This document shows positions 16,022-31,336 of a DNA stretch of 64,000 bases, piece by piece (the first letter of the stretch is position 1; each line of letters begins with the position of its first letter). The notes beneath the pieces are model-generated. The model was not told the DNA's origin and searched no databases. It saw only the letters and a program-made list of their open reading frames with translations. The position numbers were made by a program, and so were the translations under genes. Source of the stretch: an uncultured Candidatus Saccharibacteria bacterium (GTDB taxonomy: Bacteria > Patescibacteriota > Minisyncoccia > Phycocordibacterales > UBA12445); NCBI GenBank assembly GCA_964649715.1, contig CAZYTH010000003.1, forward strand, positions 4,713-68,712, read 5' to 3'.

Positions 16022-16660
16022 TTATTTTTTCGTCCTCAGCAAACCGCAGTTATCGTCATCATCGACAATGTTTTTTAAATTTTCACAATATTCTGCAAAA
16101 GAGAGTTTGATCATTCCCTCAGTCAAACCCACAGGCAAACCGGAAATACTTTCTGGCTCACCTTCGATCCTCAAGACATATGGCAGAATAAGCGGGTGCT
16201 CGTGATCGAATCCACCGGAATGAAGAAACGGATCACCACTTGCGATGTAATCATCGATCACACCTTCCGAAATATTACCAAACCATATCTTAGCTATATC
16301 GGTTCCCGTAAAACGCTTTTTGGTGGAAGTGTTTACGACGACCACAGAAGTTACCGTTTCCGCAGGATATTTGTTGTGAAGCAAAATAAATCGCTTCGCC
16401 TCTTCGGCACTTGTGGGTTTTTCGAGAATTGTTCCGTTGCAAACCACGACCTGATCGGAGGTGATAAGTATCGCATTTTTTCCGACCCGCGAAAGAAGTG
16501 CATCGGCTTTTGCATTCGCAAGGACCCGCGTCAATTCTACAGGATCTTCAAGGCGGATCGCTTTCTCGTCGATATTTGCCGGCATTACTTCAAATTGATA
16601 TCCCATCGACTCCAAAATTTTCTTTCGGGCAAGAGATTGGGACCCCAGAATGATCTTCAT
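16022..16660 (-). CDS. maf: Maf-family nucleoside-triphosphate pyrophosphatase / septum-formation protein. The start is probably MKIILGS.
   Basis: N-terminal ILGSQSxxRKxIL and the family-typical length. Confidence 0.75.
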   Translation of the reverse strand: MKIILGSQSLARKKILESMGYQFEVMPANIDEKAIRLEDPVELTRVLANAKADALLSRVGKNAILITSDQVVVCNGTILEKPTSAEEAKRFILLHNKYPAETVTSVVVVNTSTKKRFTGTDIAKIWFGNISEGVIDDYIASGDPFLHSGGFDHEHPLILPYVLRIEGEPESISGLPVGLTEGMIKLSFAEYCENLKNIVDDDDNCGLLRTKK

Positions 16661-17045
16661 CCTGCTAAAGCTCTTCACGAATTACGATTTGAACGTTTGG
16701 GGTAAAATACGGGCCTCGAAACAATGTCATACTTTCTCCCGAGCCTCATCTTGTATTGTGACCTCGTCAATTTCTTCTTTTTCTGAGGTGAAGGCAAGGT
16801 GATACGGAGATTATAGATACCAGAACAGTCAAACATTAAACTGCCTCCTTTTTTTATTTATTTTTAAAAGTCCCATTTACCCAAAAAGACTACATTTTCA
16901 AGCCATTTTTGTCAAAAATAGATACGCAGAATTTTTATTTATTTCCCTTCTCTCACCCTCCTTGTTTACGCGGATATGCCACCATCCCCTCGTCCTAACG
17001 AACGGGGTTTTATTGGGATTTATGATTTAGAAATTGTTTAAAGAT

Positions 17046-18180: not shown

Positions 18181-19303
18181 ATCTCAAGTATTTAAACTTA
18201 TTTTCCTTATGTTCTTCAAAAGTAACGGCATAGTGCATGTTCCCCCCTTTATCAGATAGAAAAAACCAATACTTATTCGGGGTCGGGTAAATAGCTGCCA
18301 GAATAGAATCTAAGCCAGGATTAGATATAGGAGCGGGTGGTAAACCCTTATATTTATAAGTATTATAAGGAGAATCAACATCTATATCTCTCAAAGATAC
18401 CTCTGCACTCCCTTTTCCCATTAAATAAACAAACGAAACATCTACTTGAAGAGGCATTCCCACATCTATTCTTCTCCACAAAATATCCGATATAATCTTC
18501 CTTGTCTTTTCTGTTCTCGCCTCCCCCTCTAAGATAGAAGCCATTGTGATTATTTCACTTAACTCTTTCCCTGAGGACAAAATGTCTGAATTTATCTCTT
18601 CAATCCTTTTATAAAAATTAGAATTCATTGCTTCTAAGACTCGTTCTGGTGTTATTTCTTTATCAAAAAAATAAGTATCCGGAAATAGATACCCTTCTCT
18701 ATTTTCCGCTAATAACAAAAATTTACTGCTATCAAAATTTAAAAATTCTTTTGCTAATATTTTAGCAACTCCCCTATTGGTCAATCCTTCTGGTATCGTA
18801 ACCTTCACAACATTCATCCCAAATTCCGTATTAGTCATTTTCGAAACAACATCAAAAATACTAGGTGGTAAATCAAAAACATATCTCCCTGCCACCACGC
18901 CCTTGTTGCCACGAGACCAAACAACTAAAAACCTAAACAAAAGAGGAGATCTTATGACATAATTTTCTCTTAAGTAGATACTGGCTTCTTTTATAGTCAT
19001 TCCAGAATTTATTTCAAGAATTTTGTTGAGAGGAAATTTTGTAGGTGGAAAGAATAAATAATAAAAAAAGAAAACAACAAAAAACAGTAATACAGGAAGA
19101 AAAATTATAAAATTTTCCTTTAAATTTGATAGATTAAAAATGAAAAAATTGCCCGCTTTACGCCAAACAGAAACAGATTTATTACTTTCGTAATTTTCAT
19201 TATTTTTCACGACAAAGCGCTTTTCTTTTTGAGATAACAATTTTTTGTAACTAAACAGGGAGGTTAACAGGTGCCTCAGATCTCTTAGACTCAATTCTTC
19301 CAA
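18179..19303 (-). CDS. mltG: YceG/MltG-family endolytic murein transglycosylase. Its 5' end overlaps the upstream ORF by about 50 nt, so the start is uncertain.
   Basis: N-terminal transmembrane segment and a YceG-like domain (LEGEARTEKTRKIISDILWRRIDVGMPLQVD...YNTYKYKGLPPAPISNPG). Confidence 0.75.
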   Translation of the reverse strand: MEELSLRDLRHLLTSLFSYKKLLSQKEKRFVVKNNENYESNKSVSVWRKAGNFFIFNLSNLKENFIIFLPVLLFFVVFFFYYLFFPPTKFPLNKILEINSGMTIKEASIYLRENYVIRSPLLFRFLVVWSRGNKGVVAGRYVFDLPPSIFDVVSKMTNTEFGMNVVKVTIPEGLTNRGVAKILAKEFLNFDSSKFLLLAENREGYLFPDTYFFDKEITPERVLEAMNSNFYKRIEEINSDILSSGKELSEIITMASILEGEARTEKTRKIISDILWRRIDVGMPLQVDVSFVYLMGKGSAEVSLRDIDVDSPYNTYKYKGLPPAPISNPGLDSILAAIYPTPNKYWFFLSDKGGNMHYAVTFEEHKENKFKYLR

Positions 19304-20510
19304 ATGTTGGAGTTACTGCAACCGCACCCGGGAAGTGATAAATCGTAGCCAGTTCTTCGGTATTAAGAGTTATCGGATTATTATTAAGAAATGGCCTATA
19401 AAAATAACCCCGATTTACATAGGACCTAAATATCTGAGACTTTTTCCTTGCTAATTCACTTCCTATGAAAGGAAGTTTTATAGGGAACTTGGGTGGGCAA
19501 AGAAGTTCCTTCCACCAAACAAGACCCGTTATACTAACGGGCTTAAAACTATTCAAATTAGTTGAACCATATTGTCTAAAAGAAGCAAATAGAGAAGTTA
19601 TGTTGCCAGCATTAAATTTTGTCCTCTTTGTGTTTGCCAAATAAATCGTTCTTATGCCACAATCGAACCCAATCTTAGAGATATTTCTTTCAACAGACTC
19701 AACAACCTCTCTTTCGCCAGCAGTCAATGATACTGGAGTTATTGGAGAAACACCCGGTATTCCTCTTTTTAATATTTTATCAATAACACTTTTTGCGTTA
19801 CCCTTCCAATCTTCTTTTCCAAACCATGTTCCATTTTTATGGAATCTTGGTTGTGCAGCCATAATCATTATTTGTATCCAAACATGTTCACCTGAACCCA
19901 CAGAACCCAAAAATTCTATAGTAGATGTTAGAGGGTCAACCTTTTGTTCCTCCTTAACCAGTTCACGATCAAGACCGTAATCTACATAAGTTTTTATCGG
20001 ATAAGCATCTGCCCTTACCAAAACATGTTCCATTCCAAATAAAGCCCAATCGGAATTAGGCGCATCGTAATTAACAGCCCCTACATAATCTGGCACCTGA
20101 TGCAATTCCGCTTCCGGATATTGTGAATATATATGGTTTTCAATAGAATTTCTTTGCCCCTTTGGTGTTCTTATAAAAAAATGTACATGACCCTCAATAG
20201 ATACTATTTCTAAAGAAAACCACACAGGAACTTTTCCCGTCCACCAATAATCATAAAAAGTCGGGGGGGTCGGAAAATTATAAAAAGAACCAAGAACAAC
20301 CTCCATGGCCTGAGGTGTTTTTTGGTGGTCTTTCGGCAATTTAACCTCAAGAAAGACCCAGTCTATCTTTGAAATAAAATCCCTAACGATGTAGTAACGC
20401 CACAAACGCCAAGAAGTAACGATTAAAATTACAGGCAAAACAAAAGGGATTAAACTCAAAAAAACCCCGAAAAGAGATTGAAATCCTGCACGATAAATAT
20501 CCAAAATCAT
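19251..20510 (-). CDS. hypothetical membrane protein (419 aa).
   Basis: N-terminal transmembrane pair followed by a large extracytoplasmic-looking domain. No known motif. Confidence 0.5.
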   Translation of the reverse strand: MILDIYRAGFQSLFGVFLSLIPFVLPVILIVTSWRLWRYYIVRDFISKIDWVFLEVKLPKDHQKTPQAMEVVLGSFYNFPTPPTFYDYWWTGKVPVWFSLEIVSIEGHVHFFIRTPKGQRNSIENHIYSQYPEAELHQVPDYVGAVNYDAPNSDWALFGMEHVLVRADAYPIKTYVDYGLDRELVKEEQKVDPLTSTIEFLGSVGSGEHVWIQIMIMAAQPRFHKNGTWFGKEDWKGNAKSVIDKILKRGIPGVSPITPVSLTAGEREVVESVERNISKIGFDCGIRTIYLANTKRTKFNAGNITSLFASFRQYGSTNLNSFKPVSITGLVWWKELLCPPKFPIKLPFIGSELARKKSQIFRSYVNRGYFYRPFLNNNPITLNTEELATIYHFPGAVAVTPTFGRIESKRSEAPVNLPV

Positions 20511-21544
20511 ATTATCAAGTATTTTCCGTTTTTGTCTTTTTTAAAATATTTCTTATTTTGAAGATTGACCAAAACGGTATTTTCTTTTATATATCTTTCC
20601 CGCAAAACCTTTTTTAATATATCCTCTTTTGTTTGCGGACCCTTTTCTTCTATTACAAGTTTTATTATATCACGAACTGTCCCTTGACTGTAGCCCCACT
20701 TGGTTAGAGCGTACAAACCTCTTCCAACAAGAACAAATCTTTTATCTTTAATTAATTCGTTGTGACACGTAGCCTCATTTGCACTTTTTCCGAATGTTTG
20801 TTTTATCGCCTTTGCCACCTCCCTAAAATGCATAGGGGAGCCATGTTTTCTTAAAACTAAATAAGCAAGATCTCTTATACCACGAACTCTAACGTTTGGA
20901 GAATTAGAAACACCCCATTCTCCTAACGCATTCTTTCCTATCTTCTTAGATACGTAAATCCATCTCTTTGCGAGTTCCTCACTTCTCAGATCTCTCACAG
21001 TGTCTCCAAGATGGTCTAAAAACTTCATAATCATCTCGCTCTCGGAGATAAGATCGTCTTCAGAAAGACTTTGATAAAGTTTTTTGAGAGAATTTTGAAC
21101 CTTTTCAGCTAATTGAGCGTTAATAGTCCATCTGTGAGAAAATTCATCATCTTCTTTTATTTTTATAAAATCATTTCCAAGTTCCAAATAAAAACTTATA
21201 TGATTCTGAAGTTCTCGGTCACCTGTAAGATGACTCAGGAAATTACTTTCATGAACTATTCCTCCGTATTCATCGAGGTGTTTTTTAAGTTCCTCAAAAG
21301 TAGCCAGATTTTCTGAATAAACGTTTGATTTTCTAATTGAATTTAAAGCAAAATTTTCTATCTGTCTTACACGCTCTCTCGTTATGCCATAACTTTCCCC
21401 AATGGCCTCAAGTGTCATACCTCGACTCCCCAAATCAAGACCGTATCTCTTTTTTATTATATCTCGTGCTCTAACAGGTAGTGCTCCCAAAAGATCTTTT
21501 GTAACCTTCTTTGGATTAAAAGTTAATTTATGCTGTTTGGCCAT
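20507..21544 (-). CDS. DNA-binding protein with an N-terminal sigma-70 region-4-like HTH and a C-terminal HARE-HTH-like domain.
   Basis: LPVRARDIIKKRYGLD...TLEAIGESYGITRERVRQIE (sigma region 4.2 pattern). C-terminal PMHFREVAKAIKQ...HNELIKDKRFVLVGRGLYALTKWGY (HARE-HTH pattern). Confidence 0.6.
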   Translation of the reverse strand: MAKQHKLTFNPKKVTKDLLGALPVRARDIIKKRYGLDLGSRGMTLEAIGESYGITRERVRQIENFALNSIRKSNVYSENLATFEELKKHLDEYGGIVHESNFLSHLTGDRELQNHISFYLELGNDFIKIKEDDEFSHRWTINAQLAEKVQNSLKKLYQSLSEDDLISESEMIMKFLDHLGDTVRDLRSEELAKRWIYVSKKIGKNALGEWGVSNSPNVRVRGIRDLAYLVLRKHGSPMHFREVAKAIKQTFGKSANEATCHNELIKDKRFVLVGRGLYALTKWGYSQGTVRDIIKLVIEEKGPQTKEDILKKVLRERYIKENTVLVNLQNKKYFKKDKNGKYLII

Positions 21545-21624: not shown

Positions 21625-22320
21625 TTACCAATCTTTTTTCTTGAGAGCATTGCTAGCGGCATCTTCTTGTGCTTCCTGCTTTGAATGACCTCGACCCTCA
21701 GAAAATAACTCTTCTCCAACGTAAAGACCAACAGTAAAAACTTTATTGTGATCAGGTCCACTTTCACTCAGAGTTTTATAGACTGGAGTTATGCTCATTT
21801 CTTCCTGAGCCTTTTCTTGAAAAAGACTCTTAGGATCCTTCCAGAGAGTTTTTTCGATTATGTTGTCTATCATTGGGAAAAGATTATGAGAAATAAATTC
21901 TTTTGCCTGCCCATAACCACTATCCAGGTATATCGCCCCAATTAAAGCCTCAAAGGTATTTGCTAAAATTACTTGTCTTGCCCTGCCGATATCTTTCGAT
22001 TCCCCTTTAGATAAAAGAAGAAATTCATTCATACCCAAGTCTGCTGCATTTTTAGATAAAGTTACGGTATTTACGAGAGATGCCCTTAGACTAGTTAGCT
22101 CTCCCTCTTGCTTGTCCTTGTATTCCTTATATAAAAATTCGGTGACAACTAGTTCTAAAACAGCATCACCCAAAAATTCCAATCTTTCGTTGTGTGAACC
22201 CAAAGAAAACCTACTTTCGTTTATATAAGATCGATGCGTAAAAGCCTGACGAAGAAGATCCTTATCTTTAAAAGTTACCCCTATTTTTTGTTCGATTATA
22301 GAAAAATCAGGTACGCTCAT
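21625..22320 (-). CDS. rnc: ribonuclease III.
   Basis: RNase III signature (HRSYINE...NERLEFLGDAVLELVV) and a C-terminal dsRBD. Confidence 0.9.
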   Translation of the reverse strand: MSVPDFSIIEQKIGVTFKDKDLLRQAFTHRSYINESRFSLGSHNERLEFLGDAVLELVVTEFLYKEYKDKQEGELTSLRASLVNTVTLSKNAADLGMNEFLLLSKGESKDIGRARQVILANTFEALIGAIYLDSGYGQAKEFISHNLFPMIDNIIEKTLWKDPKSLFQEKAQEEMSITPVYKTLSESGPDHNKVFTVGLYVGEELFSEGRGHSKQEAQEDAASNALKKKDW

Positions 22321-22335
22321 TTTTAAAAAAAATAA

Positions 22336-23238
22336 TTATTGTGAAATTGTTTTTATTGCTTCAGTAATAAGTGGAACAATATCATCGTACATCCTAAGAT
22401 GTAATATTTCCGATATCTCAAACCACCTAGCATCATCCAATCCACCAGTATCTTTTAATTTTAATTCTAAGATATCCTCAGTTTTTCCAAGAAAATAAGA
22501 AACCTTTTTAAGTATCTTACCTTTTTTGGGATCAGAGGCTATATATTCATTTGTGCCTAATTTTTTTATCGGCTCGGCCAATATTCCAATCTCTTCCATA
22601 ACCTCCCTGGAGGCTGCTTCGGCCTCCCTTTCACCATCCTCTATCCTTCCCTTAGAAAGGGTCCAATAACCAAAAATGTCATGCACCATGGCAAAATGAA
22701 TATCTCCATTTTCATTTTTATGATAAACAACCATTCCCCCCAATTTTTCAACCGGAAGATCTTTGGGGTCAATAGGCTCTTGTGTCTTTTTTATTTTTGT
22801 AACCTCATCCTTTCCTGGCTCCCCCATCTCTTTGTATATCGTCCCCATAACACCATTGATAAATTTACCGCTATTTTCTCCCCCAAAAGTTTTTGCTAAT
22901 TCAATAGCCTCATTTATTGCAACCTTCGCGGGAACTTCAGTTTTTTCCATAAATAAAAGTTCATATATACCTATCCTGAGAACATTTCTATCAACAACAG
23001 ATATTCTATCCAACGGCCACTCTGGGGCAGCTTTTGATATAATTGGATCTATTACATCCAATTTATTTATCACACTCTCAAGTAGTGATTCCAAAAAAGA
23101 AAAATCGGTCAACCCAGGACCGAATTCCCCTATATTTTCATGAAGAATGTTTCTCAACTTTGAATTATCACGGCCATTAAAGTCCCACTCAAAAAGGGTT
23201 TGTAAAACGATGCTTCTTGCTAAATGCCTATTGGCCAT
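22336..23238 (-). CDS. nusB: NusB antitermination-factor domain fused to a C-terminal NUDIX hydrolase domain.
   Basis: NusB N-terminus (RHLARSIVLQTLFEWDF...VDRNVLRIGIYELLF). C-terminus carries a perfect Nudix box, GRIEDGEREAEAASREVMEEIGI, matching G-x5-E-x7-REUxEExGU. Confidence 0.75.
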   Translation of the reverse strand: MANRHLARSIVLQTLFEWDFNGRDNSKLRNILHENIGEFGPGLTDFSFLESLLESVINKLDVIDPIISKAAPEWPLDRISVVDRNVLRIGIYELLFMEKTEVPAKVAINEAIELAKTFGGENSGKFINGVMGTIYKEMGEPGKDEVTKIKKTQEPIDPKDLPVEKLGGMVVYHKNENGDIHFAMVHDIFGYWTLSKGRIEDGEREAEAASREVMEEIGILAEPIKKLGTNEYIASDPKKGKILKKVSYFLGKTEDILELKLKDTGGLDDARWFEISEILHLRMYDDIVPLITEAIKTISQ

Positions 23239-23300: not shown

Positions 23301-23516
23301 TTAAGATCTCTTTGCTTCTTTTTTATTCTTCTTCTCGATCTTCACCATTGTATTTATCTTCTCGTTACCTTTATAATATCCACAAGCAGGACAGACTTCA
23401 TGTCTCTTGGCAAAAGCCGAACACTTGGGACAGCTATAAATGGCTGCACTTTTTAGTGCGTGGTGCGATCTTCTATTCGCGGTATGTGCCCGCGTATGTC
23501 TCATTCTAACTACCAT
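23301..23516 (-). CDS. rpmF: ribosomal protein bL32 with a Lys-rich C-terminal extension.
   Basis: MVVRMRHTRAHTANRRSHHALK and a Cys4 zinc-ribbon-like CPKC...CPACG. Confidence 0.8.
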   Translation of the reverse strand: MVVRMRHTRAHTANRRSHHALKSAAIYSCPKCSAFAKRHEVCPACGYYKGNEKINTMVKIEKKNKKEAKRS

Positions 23517-23880
23517 AGTAAGACCATATTACACTAATCTTATAAAATGGCAAGAGCAAAATAATGATTCATGATTCCATCCTGAATGAAATTATTTCAG
23601 GCAAATTAAGACTTAAAATTTATGAAATAATTTTCAATTTATAATTTTACAATTTTTAATCAATTTACAATAAAATAATTTTTAAAACAAAAGGCCCGCG
23701 ATTTGCGAGCCAATCAACAACCAACGCAGCTATTTCATCTTGTCCCTAATTTGCCTCAAGATACTTTCAATTGACCACAAAGAAACAATGATACTTACTA
23801 GACCGAAAGTTATAACAAGTTCCAAATTCTTCCTCCTTTGAAAAAGTACTCTACCGCAAAAGATTCTATTGCATTTTATA

Positions 23881-24734: not shown

Positions 24735-24811
24735 AGCGGATATACTAACAAAACGTTATTTTTTAGTCAAATTGCCAAAAGACAGACTGAGCAATTATTG
24801 GTGACTTGATA

Positions 24812-24883
24812 TACACACAGAATGGATCGAACCTTCGACCTTTCCTAAGCGAACGGAACACTCTATCGCTGAACTATGTGTGC
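24812..24883 (-). pseudogene. degenerate tRNA-like sequence (72 nt) with several non-canonical features. It may be a tRNA pseudogene or an unusual tRNA.
   Basis: Folds as acceptor GCACACA/TGTGTGT, D-stem GTTC/GAGT with a loop lacking G18G19, anticodon stem TTCCG/AGGAA carrying a G·A mismatch and loop TTCGCTT with U at position 37, and T-arm GAAGG-TTCGATC-CATTC with a G·A mismatch. Confidence 0.3.
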
Positions 24884-25340
24884 AGACCCATAAATCATAG
24901 AGCAAAAAAACACAATAAAGAAAACCCGACAAAATGCCGGGTTTAAAAAAACAAAGACTACTCTTCCTTGAAATTATCAAAAAGGAAGCGTATGCCCTCG
25001 TCGGTGGCAAGAAGGCAAAGCCCCCTCGCGAGAAGAAAACTCTTAAGACCATGGATATCCTCCTTTCCTCGCCAACTATTGACGAGAGAACTAGCCCCAA
25101 ACACCCACCCAATCTCCAGACAAAGAACTTCTAGTCGATTGAGTTCCTTATTGAGTTCCCTGAAGAATCTCTCCTCCTTGTTCTGCATTCAAACACCCCC
25201 CTTCTTTTTCTGTTAATGTTCTAAATACGCCAGTCTTATACACCTAAAAAATTAAAAAGTCAAACAAAAAAAGAACAAACACCACAGAACATCAAAAATA
25301 TTGATTTTAATTTATCTTTTGGTTAGTATAGATATCTAAT

Positions 25341-25411
25341 GGGCCTATAGTATAGCGGTAGAACGCATCCATGGCATGGATGAGGTCGGGGTTCGACTCC
25401 CCGTAGGTCCA
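25341..25411 (+). tRNA. tRNA-Ala(GGC).
   Basis: Acceptor GGGCCTA/TAGGTCC with a G3·U70 pair, anticodon stem CATCC/GGATG with loop ATGGCAT, T-arm CGGGG-TTCGACT-CCCCG. Confidence 0.85.
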
Positions 25412-27087
25412 TAAATAGAGGCAAAACGGGTTTCAAGAAATTGAAATCCGTTTTTGCATTTAAAAATAAGGCTACTATCAGAAATAAAAAGTTCGGAAAA
25501 GATAGTTCTAGCAATTAGCTCTTTTTCTTGTAAATTTGCATTTAAGTAAAAGAATAGGCCATCTTTTATGAGTTCGGAAAGAATTACGACATCTCTAATA
25601 ACTTCCCCCATTGAAACGTCTGATGAAATCTCTTCGTTTTGTATTTCAAGAATCTCAGCATTAAGATTGTCCTCTTCTTCCATGAACGTTTTTGGAGAAT
25701 ATGCTCCCGTCATAAGCAAAGATAATTTATTAGTTCTCAGATATGATAATTTTTCTCTTATTCTTTTCTTTCTACCCTCTCCTTCTTCAATATTTTTAAT
25801 CCTTTTTTCTTCAAATAGCGAGACGTCTTCACTTGTCACAATATTTAAGTTGTTCTTTTCTTCGTCTCTCAACTTTAACATAGACATAAAATCCACAATT
25901 TTTTCTTCCAGAAAATTACCGTTAAAATTTTTCTTAGAATTTTTACAACCTTTAATGCATCTAGAACCATAATACTGGATACCCTTCTGAACATATGGTG
26001 TATATGCACGCCCACACTCAGAACAACGGGCAACGCCACGATAAGGTAACTCTAATTTATTTGTATAACGCAAGCTTACATTCTTCTTCGAGAGTCCTTT
26101 TTGAACTTTATTAAAAAGTTCCTCTGAAATTATGGCCTTGTGACTTTTGCTTGGTATATAAACACCATCACTATTTAAAGTTTTTCCTGTATAAAATTTA
26201 TTTCTGAGTATTTTTTGAACAAGAGTTGCAGTAATTGGTCTGGTGACTTTTTCGATCTTACTCTCGACATCAGTTTCTTCATTTTCCAATATCTCCCCCT
26301 CTGTTCTTCTTCTGCGCATTGGTACTGTCGTCATGCCATGTTCATTAGCCCACCGAGCCAAATCAGCAACGCTCCACTCACCGGTAGTATAATATTCGAA
26401 TAGTTTCTTTACAAAAGGACCCCGAACAGGATCTACCGGCTTATTTTCTGAATTTCCTTCATTTAAATAACCTATCGGAGCCCGATATGTGCAAATCCCG
26501 TCTGCTCGCATTTTTTGAGTAGTAAGCTTAATTTTCTCACTTGTTACCCGAGAATAATGTTCTGCAAACATGCCATCTATGTCCATATGGAGAGCACCCG
26601 AGCTACTTTTCTCATATTTTGCTTGAACAAAACGGAAATCGCATCCATTTTTAATCAACTTACGAATCAAAGTATCATCTGCTTTATTTCTACTGATGCG
26701 ATCCCAACAAAGACAGATAACACCCTTAAAAAATTTCTTACTCAAAAAATAAGTAAGTCTCTGAAATTTTGGTCGGTCTATTCGATATTGGACTAAACCC
26801 TCTTCTGTGAAATTGATATCTTCATCTTGTTTGTAACCAGATTGTTTCTCTGAAATTATTCCGTTATGACAAAAACCTTTTATATCAACGGGGGCAATGG
26901 GCAATTTTTCTTTCTTTGCAAACTTGGAATTTTCGAATTTCTGGTATTCCAAAGAATTTTTCTGTGAATCGGCCTCATCTGTACTCTTTCTGTTGTAAAT
27001 TAAATAACCATCACGATACTTACCGCTCAATATTTCCTTCTCGATATCTTTTTGTCTTTTGTTTATTTGTGTTTTATTTTTTGACAT
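25345..27087 (-). CDS. large serine recombinase (phage-integrase type). The ORF reads through the antisense of tRNA-Ala for its last ~24 codons.
   Basis: N-terminal resolvase domain with the catalytic Ser (YNRKSTDEADSQKNSLEYQ), a recombinase domain, a zinc ribbon (CSECGRAYTPY...C..GC) and a C-terminal coiled coil. Confidence 0.85.
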   Translation of the reverse strand: MSKNKTQINKRQKDIEKEILSGKYRDGYLIYNRKSTDEADSQKNSLEYQKFENSKFAKKEKLPIAPVDIKGFCHNGIISEKQSGYKQDEDINFTEEGLVQYRIDRPKFQRLTYFLSKKFFKGVICLCWDRISRNKADDTLIRKLIKNGCDFRFVQAKYEKSSSGALHMDIDGMFAEHYSRVTSEKIKLTTQKMRADGICTYRAPIGYLNEGNSENKPVDPVRGPFVKKLFEYYTTGEWSVADLARWANEHGMTTVPMRRRRTEGEILENEETDVESKIEKVTRPITATLVQKILRNKFYTGKTLNSDGVYIPSKSHKAIISEELFNKVQKGLSKKNVSLRYTNKLELPYRGVARCSECGRAYTPYVQKGIQYYGSRCIKGCKNSKKNFNGNFLEEKIVDFMSMLKLRDEEKNNLNIVTSEDVSLFEEKRIKNIEEGEGRKKRIREKLSYLRTNKLSLLMTGAYSPKTFMEEEDNLNAEILEIQNEEISSDVSMGEVIRDVVILSELIKDGLFFYLNANLQEKELIARTIFSELFISDSSLIFKCKNGFQFLETRFASIYGPTGSRTPTSSMPWMRSTAIL

Positions 27088-27447
27088 TGTTTTCTTTTTT
27101 AACTCGACTTTTTGGTATCTCGACGCCTTCAGAAATAAGTCTTTTGCGAATAATCATAAATATTTTACCAAGTTCTCTTAAAGAATTAACATTTTCTAAA
27201 TTAAGTGTGATATCTGGGCTATCAAAAACAATATCTAAATTTGGACGAATACTTGCAGTTACAGAGGGGTCTAAAAGCATCAAGGGAGCCTTTAAGGGAA
27301 CATTCTCTAATTTTTTTTTATTTTTTTTATACATTTTAACTCTTTGTTAAAAATTATTAAACTTAAACTTTAATTATATTTATCAGTTGATGGTACGAAA
27401 CCAGGATATCTTGAAAAAATGAAATTTCGGGACTTTTTATTGTATCC

Positions 27448-27720
27448 TCATAACTTCAAATCAAAAAACCTGGAGTGTTTCGCTGGTTCATCCCCTAATC
27501 TATAATATTTGTGAATTTTCACGCAATTATCACACACACTCCTAACAGGTTCATCGGCTTTCATCTGTGAATTAACCTGGAGTGCGTTAAGGCAATCAAA
27601 GCAAAACCTATTAGAACACTCAAAGCAGATATCCATGGGATTTTGATAATTTCTGGGACTTTTACACTTATGACATTTTTCTTTAAAATTCTTAAATTTA
27701 TTATTGTTACCATTTAACAT
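27448..27720 (-). CDS. small Cys-rich zinc-finger protein.
   Basis: CHKCKSP...CFECSNRFCFDC...CDNC. Confidence 0.4.
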   Translation of the reverse strand: MLNGNNNKFKNFKEKCHKCKSPRNYQNPMDICFECSNRFCFDCLNALQVNSQMKADEPVRSVCDNCVKIHKYYRLGDEPAKHSRFFDLKL

Positions 27721-29053
27721 GTCTTTTAAGCTTAGATGTGGACAAAATTTGAGGAGTTTTTCCTAAAGTTGAGGTTTTACTCATTAGGGAGTTTTTTGTC
27801 TCATTTTTAATAATAATTTTCCTACTTTTTTCTTTCATATTTTTAATTGTTTTATTTTTTCTTGTAAGAAGAACTAGCCTAAAAATACAAAGTAATATCC
27901 AAGAGATATTTCTAACGATTTTGAGGCTGACAACTCGCTATATATTTTCCATTCTGTTAAAATTAATTTTTAATGAAAAAAATAAAAATCACATTAATAT
28001 TTAAAGCTAAAATAAAAAATCTTAATGACGAGTTGCTAAAATGGTAAGTTGGCTAAATAATGCCTGAATCCTAAAAGCTTGAGTCTAATAGATTGAAAAT
28101 AAATGCTATTCTGCTATATGTGGTTTTCAAATTTCCTCTGATTTCAAATCAGTAACCTGAGTTTATCAAAGCCATAGAAAAATAAAAATAAAAACGTGGA
28201 TAACTTTAGTTTCAAATATTATTATGTTAAAAATAATTAATTGCTGGTTAGTCTACATAACATTTTTGCCATATTTCACGCAAAACATCTCTCTGAATTG
28301 ATATTTAAACCGAAACATAAGTCCACAAAATTGGGGTTTTTTGGCAATCCAGTGGTAAAATTTTTTCACAACACACTTGCTACAAAAAGTTAAGTATTTG
28401 AATTGGCTATTTTTTTTTAGACTATGTTAATATTAGAAGGTTGGTTCTCCATCTAAAAGATGGAGTTGAGACAAATAAAGGCTTTGACTTTGCCCAGCTA
28501 CCGAGGAAGAACAACTTTCTTGAAAAACGGTAAAAACCACCAAGGTGGAAAGGTGAAATAATAAAGTTTTTATATTTTGTTCTTTTATAAATAGGTTGGT
28601 TATTATCTAATCGCAAGAATACCAACCTCATGCACAGCTGAAGAGACGATTAGTTAGACGTGTTTTGTCGAACCTAGGAGGCCGTCAATACGTCTATAAA
28701 CAAAAGATCCATATTGGTATCGCAGATAACAGGTGCTCCGTCTGCGGGAGATACGAAAGCCAGTATGGAGATAAACCATCCACTTGGGATTGGTTAAGAC
28801 AACCGAGCATTGGGTTAACACCCAGACGTTAACAAACTGTGGTATCGTAAAATATTTACCACTGGAAACACCCGGATTTTTTTGAGTCACATTCTTTTCA
28901 ATCATATTAACCTGTAAAAGAAAGCGGATAAAAACAATTCTTCAGCCAAAAAGAACCGTGGGGGGCCCAGGCCAAACACCAGTTTTTATATCAGGACCAG
29001 TATGGTTTCAATAAACCAATTTGGTCCAAAATATAATATTCTGTTGTTTGGTT

Positions 29054-29088
29054 AAAAAAAGGAGGCCGGCCCGAAGGGGACGGCCTCC
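29054..29088 (-). terminator. strong intrinsic terminator on the minus strand inside the ORF-free region.
   Basis: GGAGGCCG-loop-CGGCCTCC followed by T7 on the minus strand. Confidence 0.6.
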
Positions 29089-29212
29089 TTGTAACTAGTT
29101 AATATTTTAAACAAAGTATTAACGTATTTTGCGAAATATTTTGTTCTTTGTGTTTAAAGTTTTTTTCAATAACATTTGATAAGAATGGTATCTGGTATCC
29201 TTTTGTTTTTTG

Positions 29213-29235
29213 GACCTTAATGGGTCCTTTTTTTG
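29213..29235 (+). terminator. intrinsic terminator on the plus strand.
   Basis: GGACC-ttaat-GGGTCC followed by TTTTTTT. Confidence 0.55.
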
Positions 29236-29502
29236 CTATTGACCCCGGCATCAGGCTGGTAGCAAGAAGATAACAAAAGTTTTTTGGGTCGCTGACAAGT
29301 TTTTTTATTTTTGTGTGTGAATATAATCAAAATATTGAAAGTCCTTTGAAATGCTGGCGAGATGGTCTGGGTGCAGAATTTTGTCCTCTATGGGGTCAAC
29401 TTATCCTCCCTCCCCCCTTTTTAGTGTTTTTAAAAAGAACATTAAAACGGGGCGAGAGGTTCGATAAGCCCTTAGATTATAAGAATTAAGTACACACTGC
29501 GA

Positions 29503-29670
29503 TGGCTAAAATAAAAGTCAAAACAGGTGGTGTCGCTCCCAATTCGGGGCAATATCAAGTTTCGGGAACGAAACACGAGATTACCCTGTCTAAAGGTGAG
29601 CGTGTTCCTCCTTATGGAGGAAAGGCAAAAGCTTTTGTTCTTGTCGATAAGACAAAACATAAGTAAGTAG
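29503..29670 (+). CDS. small (55 aa) basic protein of unknown function, below the ORF-track cutoff.
   Basis: ATG-initiated ORF MAKIKVKTGGVAPNSGQYQVSGTKHEITLSKGERVPPYGGKAKAFVLVDKTKHK. It sits immediately upstream of, and co-oriented with, the RNase H-like gene. Confidence 0.35.
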
Positions 29671-29724
29671 CCGATCACTGAACTTTTCTCGTCAGCATTT
29701 TAGGGGATTTTTTATTTTTTAAAC

Positions 29725-30519
29725 ATGTACGACCAAAATGCTGTAAAAATATATACAGATGGTTCTGCCAAGCCTAATCCAGGCAAGGGTGGTGTTGGTA
29801 TGGTTGTGGAGTTCCCAGACAATTTTAGCCTTGAAAATTTAGAATTAAATGAGGGTTATTTCATAAGCAATAATAATCGTATGGAATTGAGAGCGTGTAT
29901 ACATGCGCTTGAGTGGCTTTAGGGATATATATTCACCAGGGCCATTATCATAACCAATTCCGAATATGTCTGTTCAAATCACAAAAACGCTCCCTTTTGG
30001 AAAAAGAACCACTGGACCACCTCTGAGGGGAGGCCCTATGAAAATGTTGACCTTTGGGACACGTTCCTAAAAAACCGACAGAAAATAAGGTTTCCTGTCG
30101 AGTTGGTTTGGGAAAAGGGCAAAAAAAGGCCAATACTTATTCGCGTAGATGAACTTGCAAAAACGGGGGCCGATAGCCCGACAAAAATAGACCATGGTTT
30201 TCAACCTGGTAAATTTACCTCATCCAGAACACTGGGCGGAAAAACCGCCACGTTATATTCTTCGATGGGTGAGGAAATATTAATTCGTGTATATAAAAAA
30301 CGTATCTATGGCAAAAATGAAAACGCGATATATAAAATAACCTTCGATATTTATGATGAAATTAAGGGTATTTATACGGAAAAACGCTATGCTTATCTTA
30401 AGAATAATACCGTAGACCTAAAAAGAAATAATTGCTATCGCGTGGTATTTAATGACGATCCTAAGTTTCCGATGATTATTAAGGCGACAGAAATCGAGTA
30501 TCTGAAAAATAAAAACTGA
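29725..30519 (+). pseudogene. RNase HI-like gene with a C-terminal extension of about 110 aa. It is interrupted by a single in-frame TAG at 29920-29922, and catalytic residues are substituted.
   Basis: IYTDGSAKPNPGKGGVGMVV and NRMELRACIHALEWL match the RNase H N-terminus. After the TAG the same frame continues through IIITNSEYV...NVDLWDTFL...VDELAKTGA (Asp70 becomes Asn and the HxxH His is absent) into the 30103..30519 ORF. Confidence 0.6.
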
Positions 30520-30528
30520 GCCAGCACG

Positions 30529-31194
30529 CTACTTCTCAAAATTTATTCGCTTATAAATGGCCCTAGTGGTTTCCACATCTCTTTTGCAGTAGTCGCAAAT
30601 CTCTTTTACCTTGCCCGCTTTGTAGAAGTCATAGACTTGTGAACCATCTATTCCATCCTTTGGTGTAGGAATACCAAGCGCCAAGGCAACGTGCTCCAAT
30701 CCGGCCCCTTTTGTCTCTGTCCATTTGGACCATTCGTGCATAGTGTCGTATATAGGATCATGCCTATATCGAGCAAAATTAAGGTCTCTTGATGGTTTTA
30801 TACCGAGAACAATGGATCTCTGATACAGGAATTTAAAGTCGAAACCGAAGATATTGTGACCAATAAATAAATCTGCGTCTTTCACAAGATCCCAGAATTT
30901 TTGGAGTGTTTCCTTCTCGTTCTCTGGGTTACAGATAACTTCCGTCTCATCGTCATTTATTGCGTAAGCGATACAAAGAACACGGCCAAAGCCTCCATCG
31001 AAAGAGGTTCCTCTTACATAGTCATCAAATTTTGCCTCCTCCTTTTCTGGTAAATATTCCTCTACGACGACCTCCTCGGACATTTCTTTTCTTTTATTCT
31101 TCTTTTCTAATTTCTTTTGGAAGAGAAATCGGAGCGCCTCGTGCTTGCTCTCATCTGCCGGCAGTGTTTCTATATCAAAATATATTTTTTTCAT
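30529..31194 (-). CDS. DEDD-type 3'-5' exonuclease (RNase H-fold, PolB-exonuclease-like).
   Basis: YFDIETLP (Exo I), GHNIFGFDFKFL (Exo II) and YCKRDVETTRAIY (Exo III, Y-x3-D). Confidence 0.65.
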   Translation of the reverse strand: MKKIYFDIETLPADESKHEALRFLFQKKLEKKNKRKEMSEEVVVEEYLPEKEEAKFDDYVRGTSFDGGFGRVLCIAYAINDDETEVICNPENEKETLQKFWDLVKDADLFIGHNIFGFDFKFLYQRSIVLGIKPSRDLNFARYRHDPIYDTMHEWSKWTETKGAGLEHVALALGIPTPKDGIDGSQVYDFYKAGKVKEICDYCKRDVETTRAIYKRINFEK

Positions 31195-31336
31195 TTGTTA
31201 TTTTATTAAATTCCATTTATCAAGGAAATATCCCATTTCGTGATTTCTATTGCCAAGATATATTTTTTCATTTTAATTTTAATGCTAATAAATTACTTTT
31301 TTTATTATACGCCCATTGCGTAAATAATAAAAATAA

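What the first reader, a model, noticed from the sequence alone, without database searches (positions are those of the whole stretch)
22336..23238. NusB-NUDIX hydrolase fusion protein
One 300-aa ORF contains a complete NusB domain followed by a domain with a textbook Nudix box (GRIEDGEREAEAASREVMEEIGI). Fusing a transcription antitermination factor to a nucleotide pyrophosphohydrolase has not been described as far as I know. It could link rRNA antitermination to nucleotide or alarmone hydrolysis (for example Ap4A or ppGpp-like substrates) or to RNA decapping. A short RelA/SpoT is encoded in the same window.
Basis: seen in the sequence. Interest (0 to 1): 0.6.

Follow-up and report, generated by a model that had tools for sequence, protein, structure and literature searches.

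The report
NusB with tethered Ap4A-hydrolase-like Nudix domain
The gene is real: a large clade of tiny "candidate phyla radiation" bacteria carries its rRNA-transcription factor NusB permanently fused to an Ap4A-hydrolase-type Nudix domain, in an operon with RNase III, and although this copy looks catalytically intact, many relatives have lost the catalytic residues yet keep the domain, so binding rather than hydrolysis is probably its conserved job.

Summary
Observation confirmed. ORF 22336..23238 (minus strand, 300 aa) has a full NusB domain (Pfam E 8.7e-35; TIGR01951 above its cutoff), a 27-residue disordered linker, and a Nudix domain (E 1.8e-13) with a perfect Nudix box at residues 197-219.

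It is not a merge artefact. The same ~300-aa architecture occurs in at least 462 GTDB species representatives, all Paceibacteria-type Patescibacteria among those read. It sits in a conserved rpmF - nusB::nudix - rnc operon (rnc downstream in 80/80 loci).

By sequence and predicted fold the Nudix domain belongs to the Ap4A/Ap6A-hydrolase clade, not MutT or RppH.

New point: the catalytic set E203/R211/E212/E215/E216 is intact in only 110 of 242 family members, and the state flips about 40-50 times on a tree. Yet the domain stays almost as conserved in the "dead" lineages, and residues aligning with Ap4A-hydrolase substrate-binding residues persist.

My reading is that NusB carries a tethered nucleotide-polyphosphate-binding module at the rRNA transcription/processing complex, and that this module is hydrolytically competent in this genome. 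The exact ligand is inferred, not shown.

I found no paper describing the fusion; databases label it only "NusB". I rate it a new variant of known kinds, of moderate interest.

The parts
22336..23238 (-). Complete nusB::nudix ORF (300 codons plus stop)
22828..23238 (-). NusB domain, residues 1-137. All-helical. F16 aligns with E. coli Y18 (NusE interface). F126 aligns with E. coli F122 (stacks on BoxA U8). N122 aligns with E. coli D118.
   Evidence: Pfam/TIGR01951. Alignment to E. coli NusB 1ey1. AF2 helices and Foldseek match to Aquifex NusB in the NusB-NusE-BoxA complex 3r2c, TM 0.87, rmsd 1.9. F16 and F126 are invariant in 111 homologues.
22747..22827 (-). Linker, residues 138-164 (MGEPGKDEVTKIKKTQEPIDPKDLPVE). 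Predicted disordered. Median family length 27 residues.
   Evidence: pLDDT below 50 for residues 141-155 and pTM 0.48. Lowest conservation of the three segments, 0.23. Length distribution. Translation.
22339..22746 (-). Nudix-fold domain of the Ap4A/Ap6A-hydrolase type, residues 165-300
   Evidence: Pfam NUDIX. Best PDB sequence hits are Ndx1, CT771, and the Aquifex, C. elegans and human Ap4A hydrolases. Foldseek gives TM 0.85 to 3i7u and 0.83 to 1vc8.
22582..22650 (-). Nudix box, residues 197-219 (GRIEDGEREAEAASREVMEEIGI). Catalytic/metal residues E203, R211, E212, E215 and E216 are all present here.
   Evidence: family statistics
22651..22686 (-). Motif V185-H-D-I-F-G-Y-W-T-L-S-K196 immediately before the box. 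It is the most conserved part of the Nudix domain. K196 aligns with the phosphate-binding Lys of the Ap4A-hydrolase 'W-T-P-P-K-G' motif.
   Evidence: 186-187 of 188 close homologues keep V185, H186, D187, F189, G190, W192, T193 and K196. W192 and K196 are kept in at least 90% of 55 divergent representatives. Alignment to C. elegans K36.
23301..23516 (-). rpmF (ribosomal protein L32), upstream gene of the conserved operon
   Evidence: Pfam Ribosomal_L32p. Upstream of the fusion in 76 of 80 loci; the 4 misses are loci where the fusion lies within about 150 nt of the locus start.
21625..22320 (-). rnc (RNase III), starting 15 nt downstream of the fusion's stop codon
   Evidence: Pfam Ribonuclease_3 + dsrm. 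Directly downstream in 80 of 80 loci and in two divergent members.
23526..23553 (-). Sigma-70-like promoter match just upstream of rpmF (weak evidence)
   Evidence: Promoter-like matches were not enriched over shuffles. A terminator-like hairpin at 23693..23711 (-) precedes it.

Best explanation
This is the clade's NusB orthologue carrying a C-terminal Nudix module of the Ap4A-hydrolase type on a ~27-residue flexible tether. It is expressed from an rpmF-nusB::nudix-rnc operon.

Proposed mechanism. The NusB domain pairs with S10 on a BoxA-like element of nascent pre-rRNA and joins the RNA polymerase antitermination/chaperone complex, as in other bacteria. This holds the Nudix module at high local concentration next to the 5' leader. 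The module binds an adenine-nucleotide polyphosphate group. Most likely this is the 5'-terminal triphosphate or Np4 cap of the nascent transcript; alternatively it is free Np(n)N. Where the Nudix box is intact, as in this genome, the module hydrolyses that group. In many sister lineages the catalytic glutamates are gone and the module would only bind. The conserved contribution would then be a second grip on the leader's 5' end, or ligand sensing, that assists rRNA looping and RNase III processing.

Shown: the fusion, its spread, the operon, the domain types, the flexible linker, intact catalytic residues here, and repeated loss of those residues elsewhere with retention of the domain.

Inferred: NusE/BoxA binding, the identity of the ligand, action in cis on nascent rRNA, and any coupling to RNase III.
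For: The fusion is real and ancient.
- The 120 best homologues all have both domains.
- At least 462 GTDB species encode it.
- About 55 full-length 50%-identity clusters reach down to about 30% identity.

NusB part.
- TIGR01951 scores above its cutoff.
- The predicted fold matches NusB in the NusB-NusE-BoxA complex, TM 0.87.
- The F122 and Y18 equivalents are invariant (residue roles from PMC3177189).
- Stand-alone NusB proteins of sister CPR lineages are about 58% identical, so the fused domain is the orthologue and not an RsmB-like paralogue.

Nudix part.
- The nearest solved relatives are Ap6A hydrolase Ndx1, CT771, and the Aquifex, C. elegans and human Ap4A hydrolases.
- K196, K239/K241/K244 and Y284 align with C. 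elegans K36, K79/K81/K83 and Y121. These match the Lys and stacking-aromatic substrate-binding scheme described in PMC4734340.

Catalysis is dispensable.
- The five catalytic residues are intact in 110 of 242 members.
- At least 39-52 state changes are needed on an NJ tree.
- The intact fraction falls from 85% among members at least 65% identical to this protein to 6% among those below 35%.
- At equal NusB divergence, the non-box part of the Nudix domain is nearly as conserved in dead as in intact lineages: 0.54 vs 0.57, 0.61 vs 0.67, 0.76 vs 0.79.
- W192, K196, Y248, W272 and Y284 are at least 90% conserved in 55 divergent representatives, while no box glutamate is.

Tether: residues 141-155 have pLDDT below 50 and pTM is 0.48.

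Operon: rnc lies downstream in 80 of 80 loci and rpmF upstream in 76 of 80. The same holds for divergent and degenerate members, one with a 16-nt overlap into rnc.

Literature context.
- Nus factors tether BoxA to RNAP, and nusB defects are suppressed by rnc mutations (PMC4807359).
- The rrn antitermination complex boosts co-transcriptional RNase III cleavage by bridging the 5' and 3' ends (bioRxiv 10.64898/2026.03.17.712431).
- The Ap4A hydrolase NUDT2 trims PPP-RNA to P-RNA (PMC8616924).
- Np(n)N act as 5' caps in bacteria and are removed by RppH and ApaH (PMC7044304, PMC8833179).
Against: - There is no direct evidence for the ligand or for action in cis.
- AF2 predicts no interface between the domains, so allosteric coupling is unsupported.
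- If conversion of 5'-PPP to 5'-P mattered, catalysis should not be lost so often. The model therefore has to assume that binding alone suffices.
- Some of the most conserved residues (W192, Y248, W272) may be fold-core residues rather than ligand contacts. I could not inspect model coordinates.
- The loop-5 stacking Tyr maps only approximately: Y232 lies 3 residues from the aligned position.
- The C. elegans catalytic base E103 has no clear equivalent.
- No rRNA operon or BoxA from these genomes was available.
- I could not test whether fusion-bearing genomes also hold a second, stand-alone nusB.
- Three sister genomes with stand-alone nusB have no Nudix gene next to it, so there is no 'Rosetta stone' neighbourhood support.
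Confidence: 0.4

Rival explanations
1. Free-ligand sensor. The Nudix domain binds a soluble nucleotide signal (Ap4A, other Np(n)N, or ATP) and tunes NusB activity or availability. This would resemble the Nudix effector domain of NrtR regulators, or CF Im25, which binds but does not cleave Ap4A. Hydrolysis, where retained, would reset the signal.
For: Catalytic residues are lost repeatedly while residues aligning with Ap4A-hydrolase binding residues are kept. Non-catalytic Nudix domains in multidomain regulators are an established class (PMC5389931). CF Im25 binds Ap4A and ATP without hydrolysis (PMC2425470). Foldseek also lists the NrtR Nudix domain 3gz8 among the matches.
Against: AF2 predicts no interface between the two domains (pTM 0.48, disordered linker), so there is no obvious route from ligand binding to NusB function. 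The ligand is unknown. This is not distinguishable from the best explanation with the present data.
Confidence: 0.2
2. SuhB-like structural subunit. The Nudix fold is an enzyme-derived protein or RNA interaction module that stabilises the rRNA antitermination complex. In E. coli the inositol monophosphatase SuhB does this without needing its catalytic activity. Nucleotide binding would be irrelevant.
For: The domain is retained under purifying selection without catalytic residues. The precedent is SuhB, which is recruited in a NusB-dependent way; its growth phenotype is not tied to IMPase activity, and suhB cold sensitivity is suppressed by rnc mutations (PMC4807359). Final SuhB recruitment stabilises the complex and boosts RNase III processing (bioRxiv 10.64898/2026.03.17.712431). 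The operon with rnc is conserved.
Against: The best-conserved residues coincide, by alignment, with the nucleotide-binding residues of Ap4A hydrolases rather than with a new surface. About half of the family keeps a perfect catalytic box, which a purely structural role would not need. The presence or absence of suhB in these genomes was not tested.
Confidence: 0.15
3. Functionally unlinked bifunctional protein. A housekeeping Ap4A hydrolase gene fused to nusB during genome streamlining. Each half does its usual job independently.
For: The linker is flexible and no interface is predicted. The catalytic box is intact in this genome and in 85% of its nearest relatives. CPR genomes are small and compact. 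That last point is general knowledge and was not tested here.
Against: A housekeeping hydrolase should not lose its catalytic glutamates about 40-50 times. If it were redundant, the domain should decay or be deleted. Instead it is kept at nearly unchanged conservation and length across the clade. The fusion and its operon are stable down to about 30% identity.
Confidence: 0.15
4. RsmB-like arrangement. The N-terminal domain is only a NusB-fold RNA-targeting module and not the antitermination factor. It delivers a Nudix enzyme to rRNA, and a separate true NusB exists elsewhere in the genome.
For: RsmB proves that a NusB fold can be an N-terminal targeting domain for an rRNA enzyme. RsmB models do give weak hits.
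Against: TIGR01951 is above its equivalog cutoff, whereas RsmB models are far below theirs (52.6 vs 319). Identity to stand-alone CPR NusB is about 58%. The NusE-interface and BoxA-stacking residues are invariant. No second NusB or Nudix gene was found among all 61 ORFs of at least 80 aa in the window. That covers only 64 kb.
Confidence: 0.07
5. Assembly or annotation artefact that merges two adjacent genes.
For: None found.
Against: Hundreds of independent assemblies from different studies carry the same uninterrupted ~300-aa ORF.
Confidence: 0.01

Closest known systems
NusB (TIGR01951 / PF01029), partner of S10/NusE on BoxA RNA
   Same: The N-terminal 137 residues match: score above the equivalog cutoff, same all-helical fold (TM 0.87 to Aquifex NusB in the BoxA complex), and conserved equivalents of E. 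coli Y18, D118 and F122.
   Different: Canonical NusB is a ~140-aa single-domain protein. This one has a 27-residue linker and a 136-residue Nudix domain. It also sits in an rpmF-...-rnc operon instead of the groEL...nusB-hup context seen for stand-alone NusB in sister CPR genomes.
Nudix Ap4A/Ap6A hydrolases (human NUDT2, C. elegans Ap4A hydrolase, Aquifex aq_158, T. thermophilus Ndx1, Chlamydia CT771)
   Same: These are the best sequence and fold matches (E about 1e-8; TM 0.83-0.85). They share the 'W-T-x-x-K-G' motif before the box, the lysine-rich beta-hairpin and the C-terminal stacking aromatic.
   Different: Those enzymes are free-standing and keep their catalytic residues. Here the domain is fused to NusB and the catalytic set is lost in more than half of the family. 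C. elegans His31 aligns with Tyr here. The extra-box catalytic Glu (C. elegans E103) has no clear counterpart.
RppH (bacterial RNA 5' pyrophosphohydrolase / Np4 decapping enzyme)
   Same: It is a Nudix enzyme related to the Ap4A-hydrolase group that works on RNA 5' ends. It is the closest functional analogue of the proposed activity (PMC8616924, PMC8833179).
   Different: All RppH NCBIfam models score far below their cutoffs (best 28 against 118). This protein is not a member.
RsmB/Sun (NusB-like N-terminal domain + rRNA methyltransferase)
   Same: Same design principle: a NusB fold lies N-terminal to an enzyme domain that acts on RNA.
   Different: The enzyme domain is different. In RsmB the NusB-like domain is a divergent paralogue. 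Here it scores as the true NusB equivalog.
Non-catalytic Nudix modules (NrtR effector domain; CF Im25/NUDT21) and SuhB in the rrn antitermination complex
   Same: These are enzyme-fold domains kept for binding rather than catalysis, within transcription or RNA-processing machinery. CF Im25 binds Ap4A without cleaving it (PMC2425470). SuhB's role in the Nus complex is not tied to its phosphatase activity (PMC4807359).
   Different: Different partners and folds (SuhB is an IMPase). In this family catalytic and non-catalytic versions coexist among close relatives, and the copy in this window looks active.

Membership tests
NusB (transcription antitermination factor) | Sequence match to the curated equivalog model above its cutoff | tested here: met
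   TIGR01951 scores 123.9 bits against a cutoff of 88.35. Pfam NusB gives E 8.7e-35.
NusB (transcription antitermination factor) | All-alpha NusB fold | tested here: met
   AF2 predicts seven helices with pLDDT about 90. Foldseek gives TM 0.87, rmsd 1.9 to 3r2c/3r2d and TM 0.80 to 1tzv.
NusB (transcription antitermination factor) | Conserved aromatic on helix alpha7 that stacks on BoxA U8 (E. coli F122), and the NusE-interface aromatic (E. coli Y18) | tested here: met
   F126 and F16 align with them. Both are invariant in 111 homologues. F126 is invariant in 55 divergent representatives. Residue roles are from PMC3177189.
NusB (transcription antitermination factor) | Binds S10/NusE and BoxA RNA; supports rRNA antitermination | not testable with these tools
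   Needs biochemistry. No rRNA leader from these genomes was among the 85 sequences held.
NusB (transcription antitermination factor) | It is the genome's (single) NusB | not tested
   Only 64 kb of the genome is available. No second NusB was found among 61 ORFs.
Nudix hydrolase superfamily | Nudix fold (alpha/beta/alpha sandwich) | tested here: met
   The AF2 domain spanning residues 163-299 has pLDDT about 90. More than 500 PDB Nudix matches have E below 1e-3.
Nudix hydrolase superfamily | Nudix box GX5EX7REUXEEXGU with the metal-binding and catalytic Glu residues | tested here: met
   Met for this protein (residues 197-219). In the family as a whole it is intact in only 110 of 242 members. 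Pfam NUDIX still detects 45 of 55 divergent representatives.
Nudix hydrolase superfamily | Mg2+-dependent pyrophosphohydrolase activity | not testable with these tools
   Needs an enzyme assay.
Ap4A/Ap(n)A hydrolase subfamily (NUDT2/Ndx1 type) | Closest relatives by sequence and by structure are Ap(n)A hydrolases | tested here: met
   phmmer top hits are 1vc8, 4ilq, 3i7u, 1kt9 and 3u53. Foldseek top hits are 3i7u, 9cxx, 4mpo and 1vc8.
Ap4A/Ap(n)A hydrolase subfamily (NUDT2/Ndx1 type) | Phosphate-binding Lys of the 'W-T-P-P-K-G' motif, Lys on loop 5, and a pair of adenine-stacking aromatics | tested here: inconclusive
   K196 aligns with K36, K244 with K83 and Y284 with Y121 of the C. elegans enzyme. 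The loop-5 Tyr (Y76) aligns 3 residues away from Y232, and His31 aligns with Tyr. The scheme is taken from PMC4734340. No curated model of this subfamily was available.
RppH | Match to curated RppH equivalog models | tested here: not met
   The best score is 28.2 bits against a cutoff of 118.
MutT (8-oxo-dGTPase) | Match to curated MutT models | tested here: not met
   TIGR00586 scores 21.2 against 97.9. PRK10776 scores 22.9 against 148.
RsmB/Sun | NusB-like domain followed by a SAM methyltransferase domain | tested here: not met
   RsmB models hit only the NusB part, far below their cutoffs. There is no methyltransferase domain.

The most novel reading that the evidence does not exclude
Paceibacteria build their rRNA transcription/processing complex around a NusB with a built-in reader, and in some lineages an eraser, of the RNA 5' end. 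The Ap4A-hydrolase-derived domain would grip the 5'-triphosphate or Np4 cap of the nascent pre-rRNA leader while NusB/S10 hold BoxA. This would couple 5'-end status to rRNA looping and RNase III cleavage, and would functionally replace SuhB-type stabilisers. It would be a bacterial form of co-transcriptional 5'-end recognition, and a natural series of active and 'dead' variants with which to dissect it.
Probability: 0.2. Interest if true: 0.8.

Novelty: new variant of a known kind. Interest (0 to 1): 0.55.

Why it matters
NusB is a universal and usually invariant single-domain factor. Here a whole class of ultra-small bacteria has remodelled it by permanently attaching a nucleotide-polyphosphate-binding or -hydrolysing domain, and has placed it in an operon with RNase III.

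If the module acts at the antitermination complex, it would reveal a new way to couple rRNA transcription to one of two things: RNA 5'-end chemistry (triphosphate or Np4 caps) or alarmone levels. It would also give a second example, after SuhB, of an enzyme fold recruited into this machine.

The patchwork of catalytically intact and dead orthologues is a ready-made natural experiment for separating binding from catalysis.

There is a practical point too. Thousands of database entries are labelled only 'NusB', which hides the second domain. NusB is also, to my recollection (not checked here), among the phylogenomic marker genes, so the extra 160 residues matter for alignments.

Tried and rejected
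- **Artefact or frameshift:** rejected.
- **MutT or RppH identity of the Nudix domain:** rejected, because all curated models score far below their cutoffs.
- **Link to the Rel gene in the window:** no conserved synteny. Only rpmF and rnc are conserved neighbours.
- **'Rosetta stone' check:** three sister CPR genomes with stand-alone nusB show groEL...nusB-hup and no adjacent Nudix or rnc. The fusion is therefore not foreshadowed by gene adjacency.
- **Search for rRNA genes or BoxA** in the window and 84 loci, using conserved 16S/23S motifs: none present (Rfam found only 3 tRNAs in the window).
- **Literature:** four full-text searches and one in-paper term search for any description of the fusion found nothing.
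- **Taxon names for 10 divergent members:** uninformative.
- **Foldseek against AFDB50:** the library was not available.
- **Internal translation start for a separate Nudix protein:** M169 is not conserved (the family consensus has Ala), so I did not pursue it.
- **Mapping conserved residues on the model:** I could not do this because coordinates are not exposed. I relied on alignments to solved Ap4A hydrolases instead.
- **Third large protein search and second structure job:** I left these unused because neither would have discriminated between the remaining hypotheses.
Full report
**1. The observation**

The window holds an uninterrupted ORF at 22336..23238 on the minus strand, 300 codons long. 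Pfam places a full-length NusB domain at residues 7-136 (E 8.7e-35) and a NUDIX domain at residues 189-285 (E 1.8e-13). NCBI's equivalog model for NusB, TIGR01951, scores 123.9 bits against a cutoff of 88.35. The only addition is the strand.

**2. Not an artefact, and not rare**

A search of 5.8 billion clustered proteins returned 120 best hits. All are about 300 aa, carry both Pfam domains, share 57-76% identity with this protein, and come from independent assemblies on contigs of up to 430 kb.

The 80 best are all Paceibacteria-type Patescibacteria, with names such as Nomura-, Vogel-, Taylor-, Campbell- and Yonathbacteria, 'Paceibacterota' and 'Minisyncoccia'. In all 80 the ORF is continuous, at about 298-311 aa.

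An exhaustive HMMER search of 1.84 billion 50%-identity cluster representatives gave 154 hits below 1e-30. About 55 of these are usable full-length two-domain representatives, reaching down to about 30% identity. The same search also returned many 140-160-aa stand-alone NusB proteins that are 50-60% identical to the N-terminal half.

The fusion is therefore an old, fixed architecture of a large CPR clade. Sources annotate it only as 'transcription antitermination factor NusB'.

**3. Genomic context**

In the window the gene lies 62 nt downstream of rpmF (L32; 23301..23516) and 15 nt upstream of rnc (RNase III; 21625..22320), all on the minus strand.

- Across the 80 related loci, rnc follows the fusion in 80 of 80 and rpmF precedes it in 76 of 80. 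The four exceptions are loci where the fusion lies within about 150 nt of the locus start.
- Nothing else is conserved around it.
- Two very divergent members have the same arrangement. These are P0209, and P0206, whose Nudix part is so degenerate that Pfam no longer detects it. In one of them the fusion overlaps rnc by 16 nt.
- A promoter-like match precedes rpmF, and a terminator-like hairpin separates it from the upstream KhpA gene. This is weak evidence.
- Stand-alone nusB genes of three sister CPR genomes sit in a different context (groEL ... nusB - hup) with no Nudix or rnc gene nearby.
- All 61 ORFs of at least 80 aa in the window were scanned. There is no second NusB or Nudix protein.
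It is not syntenic with the fusion elsewhere.

**4. The NusB half**

The closest solved sequences are NusB from Thermotoga, Aquifex and E. coli (E 3e-24 to 1e-16). The AlphaFold2 model (mean pLDDT 86.6) gives seven helices, and Foldseek matches Aquifex NusB in the NusB-NusE-BoxA complex with TM 0.87 and rmsd 1.9 Å.

Three functionally important E. coli residues have equivalents here:

| This protein | E. coli NusB | Role of the E. coli residue |
|---|---|---|
| F16 | Y18 | Site of nusB5 (Y18D), which likely disrupts the NusB-NusE complex |
| F126 | F122 | Stacks on BoxA U8; F122D is defective |
| N122 | D118 | Changed to Asn in the nusB101 allele |

The roles are taken from PMC3177189. F16 and F126 are invariant in 111 homologues, and F126 is invariant even in 55 divergent representatives. 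Together with about 58% identity to stand-alone CPR NusB, this makes the fused domain the NusB orthologue rather than an RsmB-type paralogue. RsmB models score far below their cutoffs.

**5. The Nudix half**

phmmer against PDB sequences ranks these first: T. thermophilus Ndx1 (an Ap6A hydrolase), Chlamydia CT771, Aquifex Ap4A hydrolase, C. elegans Ap4A hydrolase and human NUDT2. Foldseek gives the same picture: 3i7u with TM 0.85, 1vc8 with TM 0.83, plus the M. tuberculosis Rv2985/MutT1 diadenosine polyphosphatase and CT771. Curated MutT, RppH, NudC and other NCBIfam models are all far below their cutoffs.

In the alignment with the C. elegans enzyme:

- K196 aligns with K36 of the 'W-T-P-P-K-G' motif.
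- E212 and E216 align with E52 and E56.
- K239, K241 and K244 align with K79, K81 and K83.
- Y284 aligns with Y121.

According to PMC4734340, Ap4A hydrolases share a substrate-binding scheme. It comprises a Lys of that motif, a His, a Lys and a Tyr on loop 5, and a second stacking Tyr or Phe near the C-terminus. My recollection of the specific C. elegans residue roles (Bailey et al. 2002) is from memory. The residue numbers agree with the aligned sequence. The loop-5 Tyr and the extra-box catalytic Glu (E103) do not map cleanly.

**6. The two domains are beads on a string**

Residues 141-155 have pLDDT below 50, and pTM is only 0.48 although both domains are confident. The linker is the least conserved segment (0.23, against 0.54 for NusB and 0.43 for Nudix). 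Its median length across the family is 27 residues.

**7. Catalysis is dispensable in the family**

This is the unexpected result. I aligned 242 full-length members: 188 close homologues and 54 divergent cluster representatives.

- The catalytic and metal-binding set E203/R211/E212/E215/E216 is intact in only 110.
- E212, the 'RE' glutamate that aligns with C. elegans E52, is kept in 126 of 188 close members and 12 of 54 divergent ones. It is usually replaced by K, V or I.
- On a neighbour-joining tree the intact/not-intact state needs at least 39-52 changes. This means many independent losses rather than one divergent subclade.
- The intact fraction falls from 85% among sequences at least 65% identical to this protein to 6% among those below 35%. 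Even 70-72%-identical relatives such as P0007, P0012 and P0015 have lost it.

Yet the domain is not decaying.

- At matched NusB-domain divergence, identity of the non-box part of the Nudix domain is nearly the same in 'dead' and intact lineages: 0.54 vs 0.57, 0.61 vs 0.67 and 0.76 vs 0.79.
- The motif V185-H-D-[VI]-F-G-x-W-T-[LI]-S-K-G just before the box is essentially invariant in the close set.
- In the 55 divergent representatives the residues conserved at 90% or more in this half are W192, K196, Y248, W272 and Y284. None is a box glutamate.
- Pfam NUDIX still recognises 45 of these 55, and NusB 55 of 55.

From established Nudix enzymology (my knowledge, not tested here), loss of the 'RE' and 'EE' glutamates reduces activity by orders of magnitude. 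The function that selection preserves across the clade is therefore something other than turnover. The protein in this window, and 22 of its 26 nearest relatives, keep everything needed for hydrolysis.

**8. Mechanism**

*What is established elsewhere.*

- NusB/S10 bind BoxA in the rRNA leader and tether it to RNA polymerase. nusB and suhB defects in 30S maturation are suppressed by rnc mutations (PMC4807359).
- Np(n)N serve as 5' caps on bacterial RNA and are removed by RppH and ApaH (PMC7044304, PMC8833179).
- The Ap4A hydrolase NUDT2 converts PPP-RNA to P-RNA (PMC8616924).
- Non-catalytic Nudix domains act as binding modules in multidomain proteins (PMC5389931). CF Im25 binds but does not cleave Ap4A (PMC2425470).

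*What I infer.* The NusB half docks the protein on the nascent leader at the polymerase. The tethered Ap4A-hydrolase-type module binds a nucleotide-polyphosphate group there. I favour the 5' end of the nascent transcript (triphosphate or Np4 cap) because of the tether and the fixed operon with rnc. Where the box is intact, as here, the module also hydrolyses that group. I put this at about 0.4.

*Rivals.*

- A sensor of free Ap4A or nucleotides (0.2).
- A SuhB-like structural subunit whose nucleotide pocket is irrelevant (0.15).
- An unlinked bifunctional fusion (0.15). This is disfavoured because a housekeeping enzyme would not lose catalysis repeatedly while keeping the domain.
- An RsmB-like targeting arrangement with a separate true NusB (0.07).
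- An artefact (0.01).

None of the first three can be separated from the others without biochemistry or whole-genome censuses.

**9. Novelty and verdict**

Four full-text searches found no description of a NusB-Nudix fusion: NusB + Nudix; Nudix + Candidate Phyla Radiation; NusB + MutT + fusion; and a term search inside the main survey of the Nudix clan. The library lacks most subscription-journal papers, so this is absence of evidence only.

Both domains are well known, and the architecture is visible in public databases. This is therefore a new variant of known kinds rather than a new kind of system. The points of interest are:

- the scale: it is the default NusB of a large clade;
- the fixed operon with RNase III;
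- the mosaic of active and inactive Nudix boxes, which argues for a binding role at the rRNA transcription/processing machinery.

Interest 0.55.

Noticed in passing
window 8417..9934 (+): A Rel-type (p)ppGpp synthetase/hydrolase of only 505 aa, with HD_4 + RelA_SpoT + TGS domains and without the usual C-terminal regulatory domains. It is not syntenic with the fusion in other genomes.
   Followed up: partly
window 25340..31200: A large serine recombinase (25345..27087, minus strand; Resolvase + Recombinase) abuts and overlaps tRNA-Ala(ggc) at 25340..25412 (+). A run of small unannotatable ORFs follows, and then a PolB-exonuclease-like protein (30529..31194, minus strand). This may be an integrated mobile element next to a tRNA. 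A second tRNA-Ala (cgc) lies at 24811..24884 (-).
   Followed up: no
window 19251..21544 (-): Directly downstream of rnc is a 345-aa protein with Sigma70_r4 + HARE-HTH domains. It overlaps by 4 nt a 419-aa ORF that has no Pfam match. Among the 80 related loci, only L001 (the closest relative) showed matches to this pair.
   Followed up: partly
window 16022..16678 (-): A Maf-family nucleotide pyrophosphatase is encoded 6 kb from the fusion, so another nucleotide-polyphosphate enzyme lies in the neighbourhood. There is no conserved linkage.
   Followed up: no
window 11925..14747 (+) and 33385..36171 (-): Two very large ORFs. The first (940 aa) has no Pfam hit at all. The second (928 aa) has only a trypsin-like peptidase domain at residues 599-738. 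They look like typical CPR 'dark' proteins.
   Followed up: no
family members P0241, P0250, P0251 (338-345 aa): In these fusion proteins the Nudix-box region is replaced or interrupted by long K/E-rich low-complexity inserts, while the flanking Nudix segments remain. This is an extreme form of the box degeneration.
   Followed up: partly
L085 672..1568 (P0206): This orthologue's C-terminal half no longer hits Pfam NUDIX. It keeps the same length and the rpmF-X-rnc operon, starts 3 nt after rpmF, and overlaps rnc by 16 nt.
   Followed up: partly
P0139, P0149 (protein-representative hits): These proteins have NusB N-termini joined to unrelated C-terminal sequences, one of which looks like a cytidylyltransferase fragment. 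They may be chimeric assemblies or other NusB fusions.
   Followed up: no
L052 and many 'uncultured Candidatus Saccharibacteria' loci: The record titles ('Burkholderiales bacterium', 'Saccharibacteria') are at odds with the Paceibacteria-type gene content and with 56-60% identity to Nomurabacteria proteins. These are probably mislabelled MAGs.
   Followed up: no
L086 5624..7714: In a divergent member, rnc is followed by smc, as in Bacillus (rnc-smc-ftsY; from memory). This suggests that the rpmF...rnc neighbourhood is a remnant of the Firmicute-type rpmF-plsX-fab-acpP-rnc region after loss of the lipid-synthesis genes.
   Followed up: no
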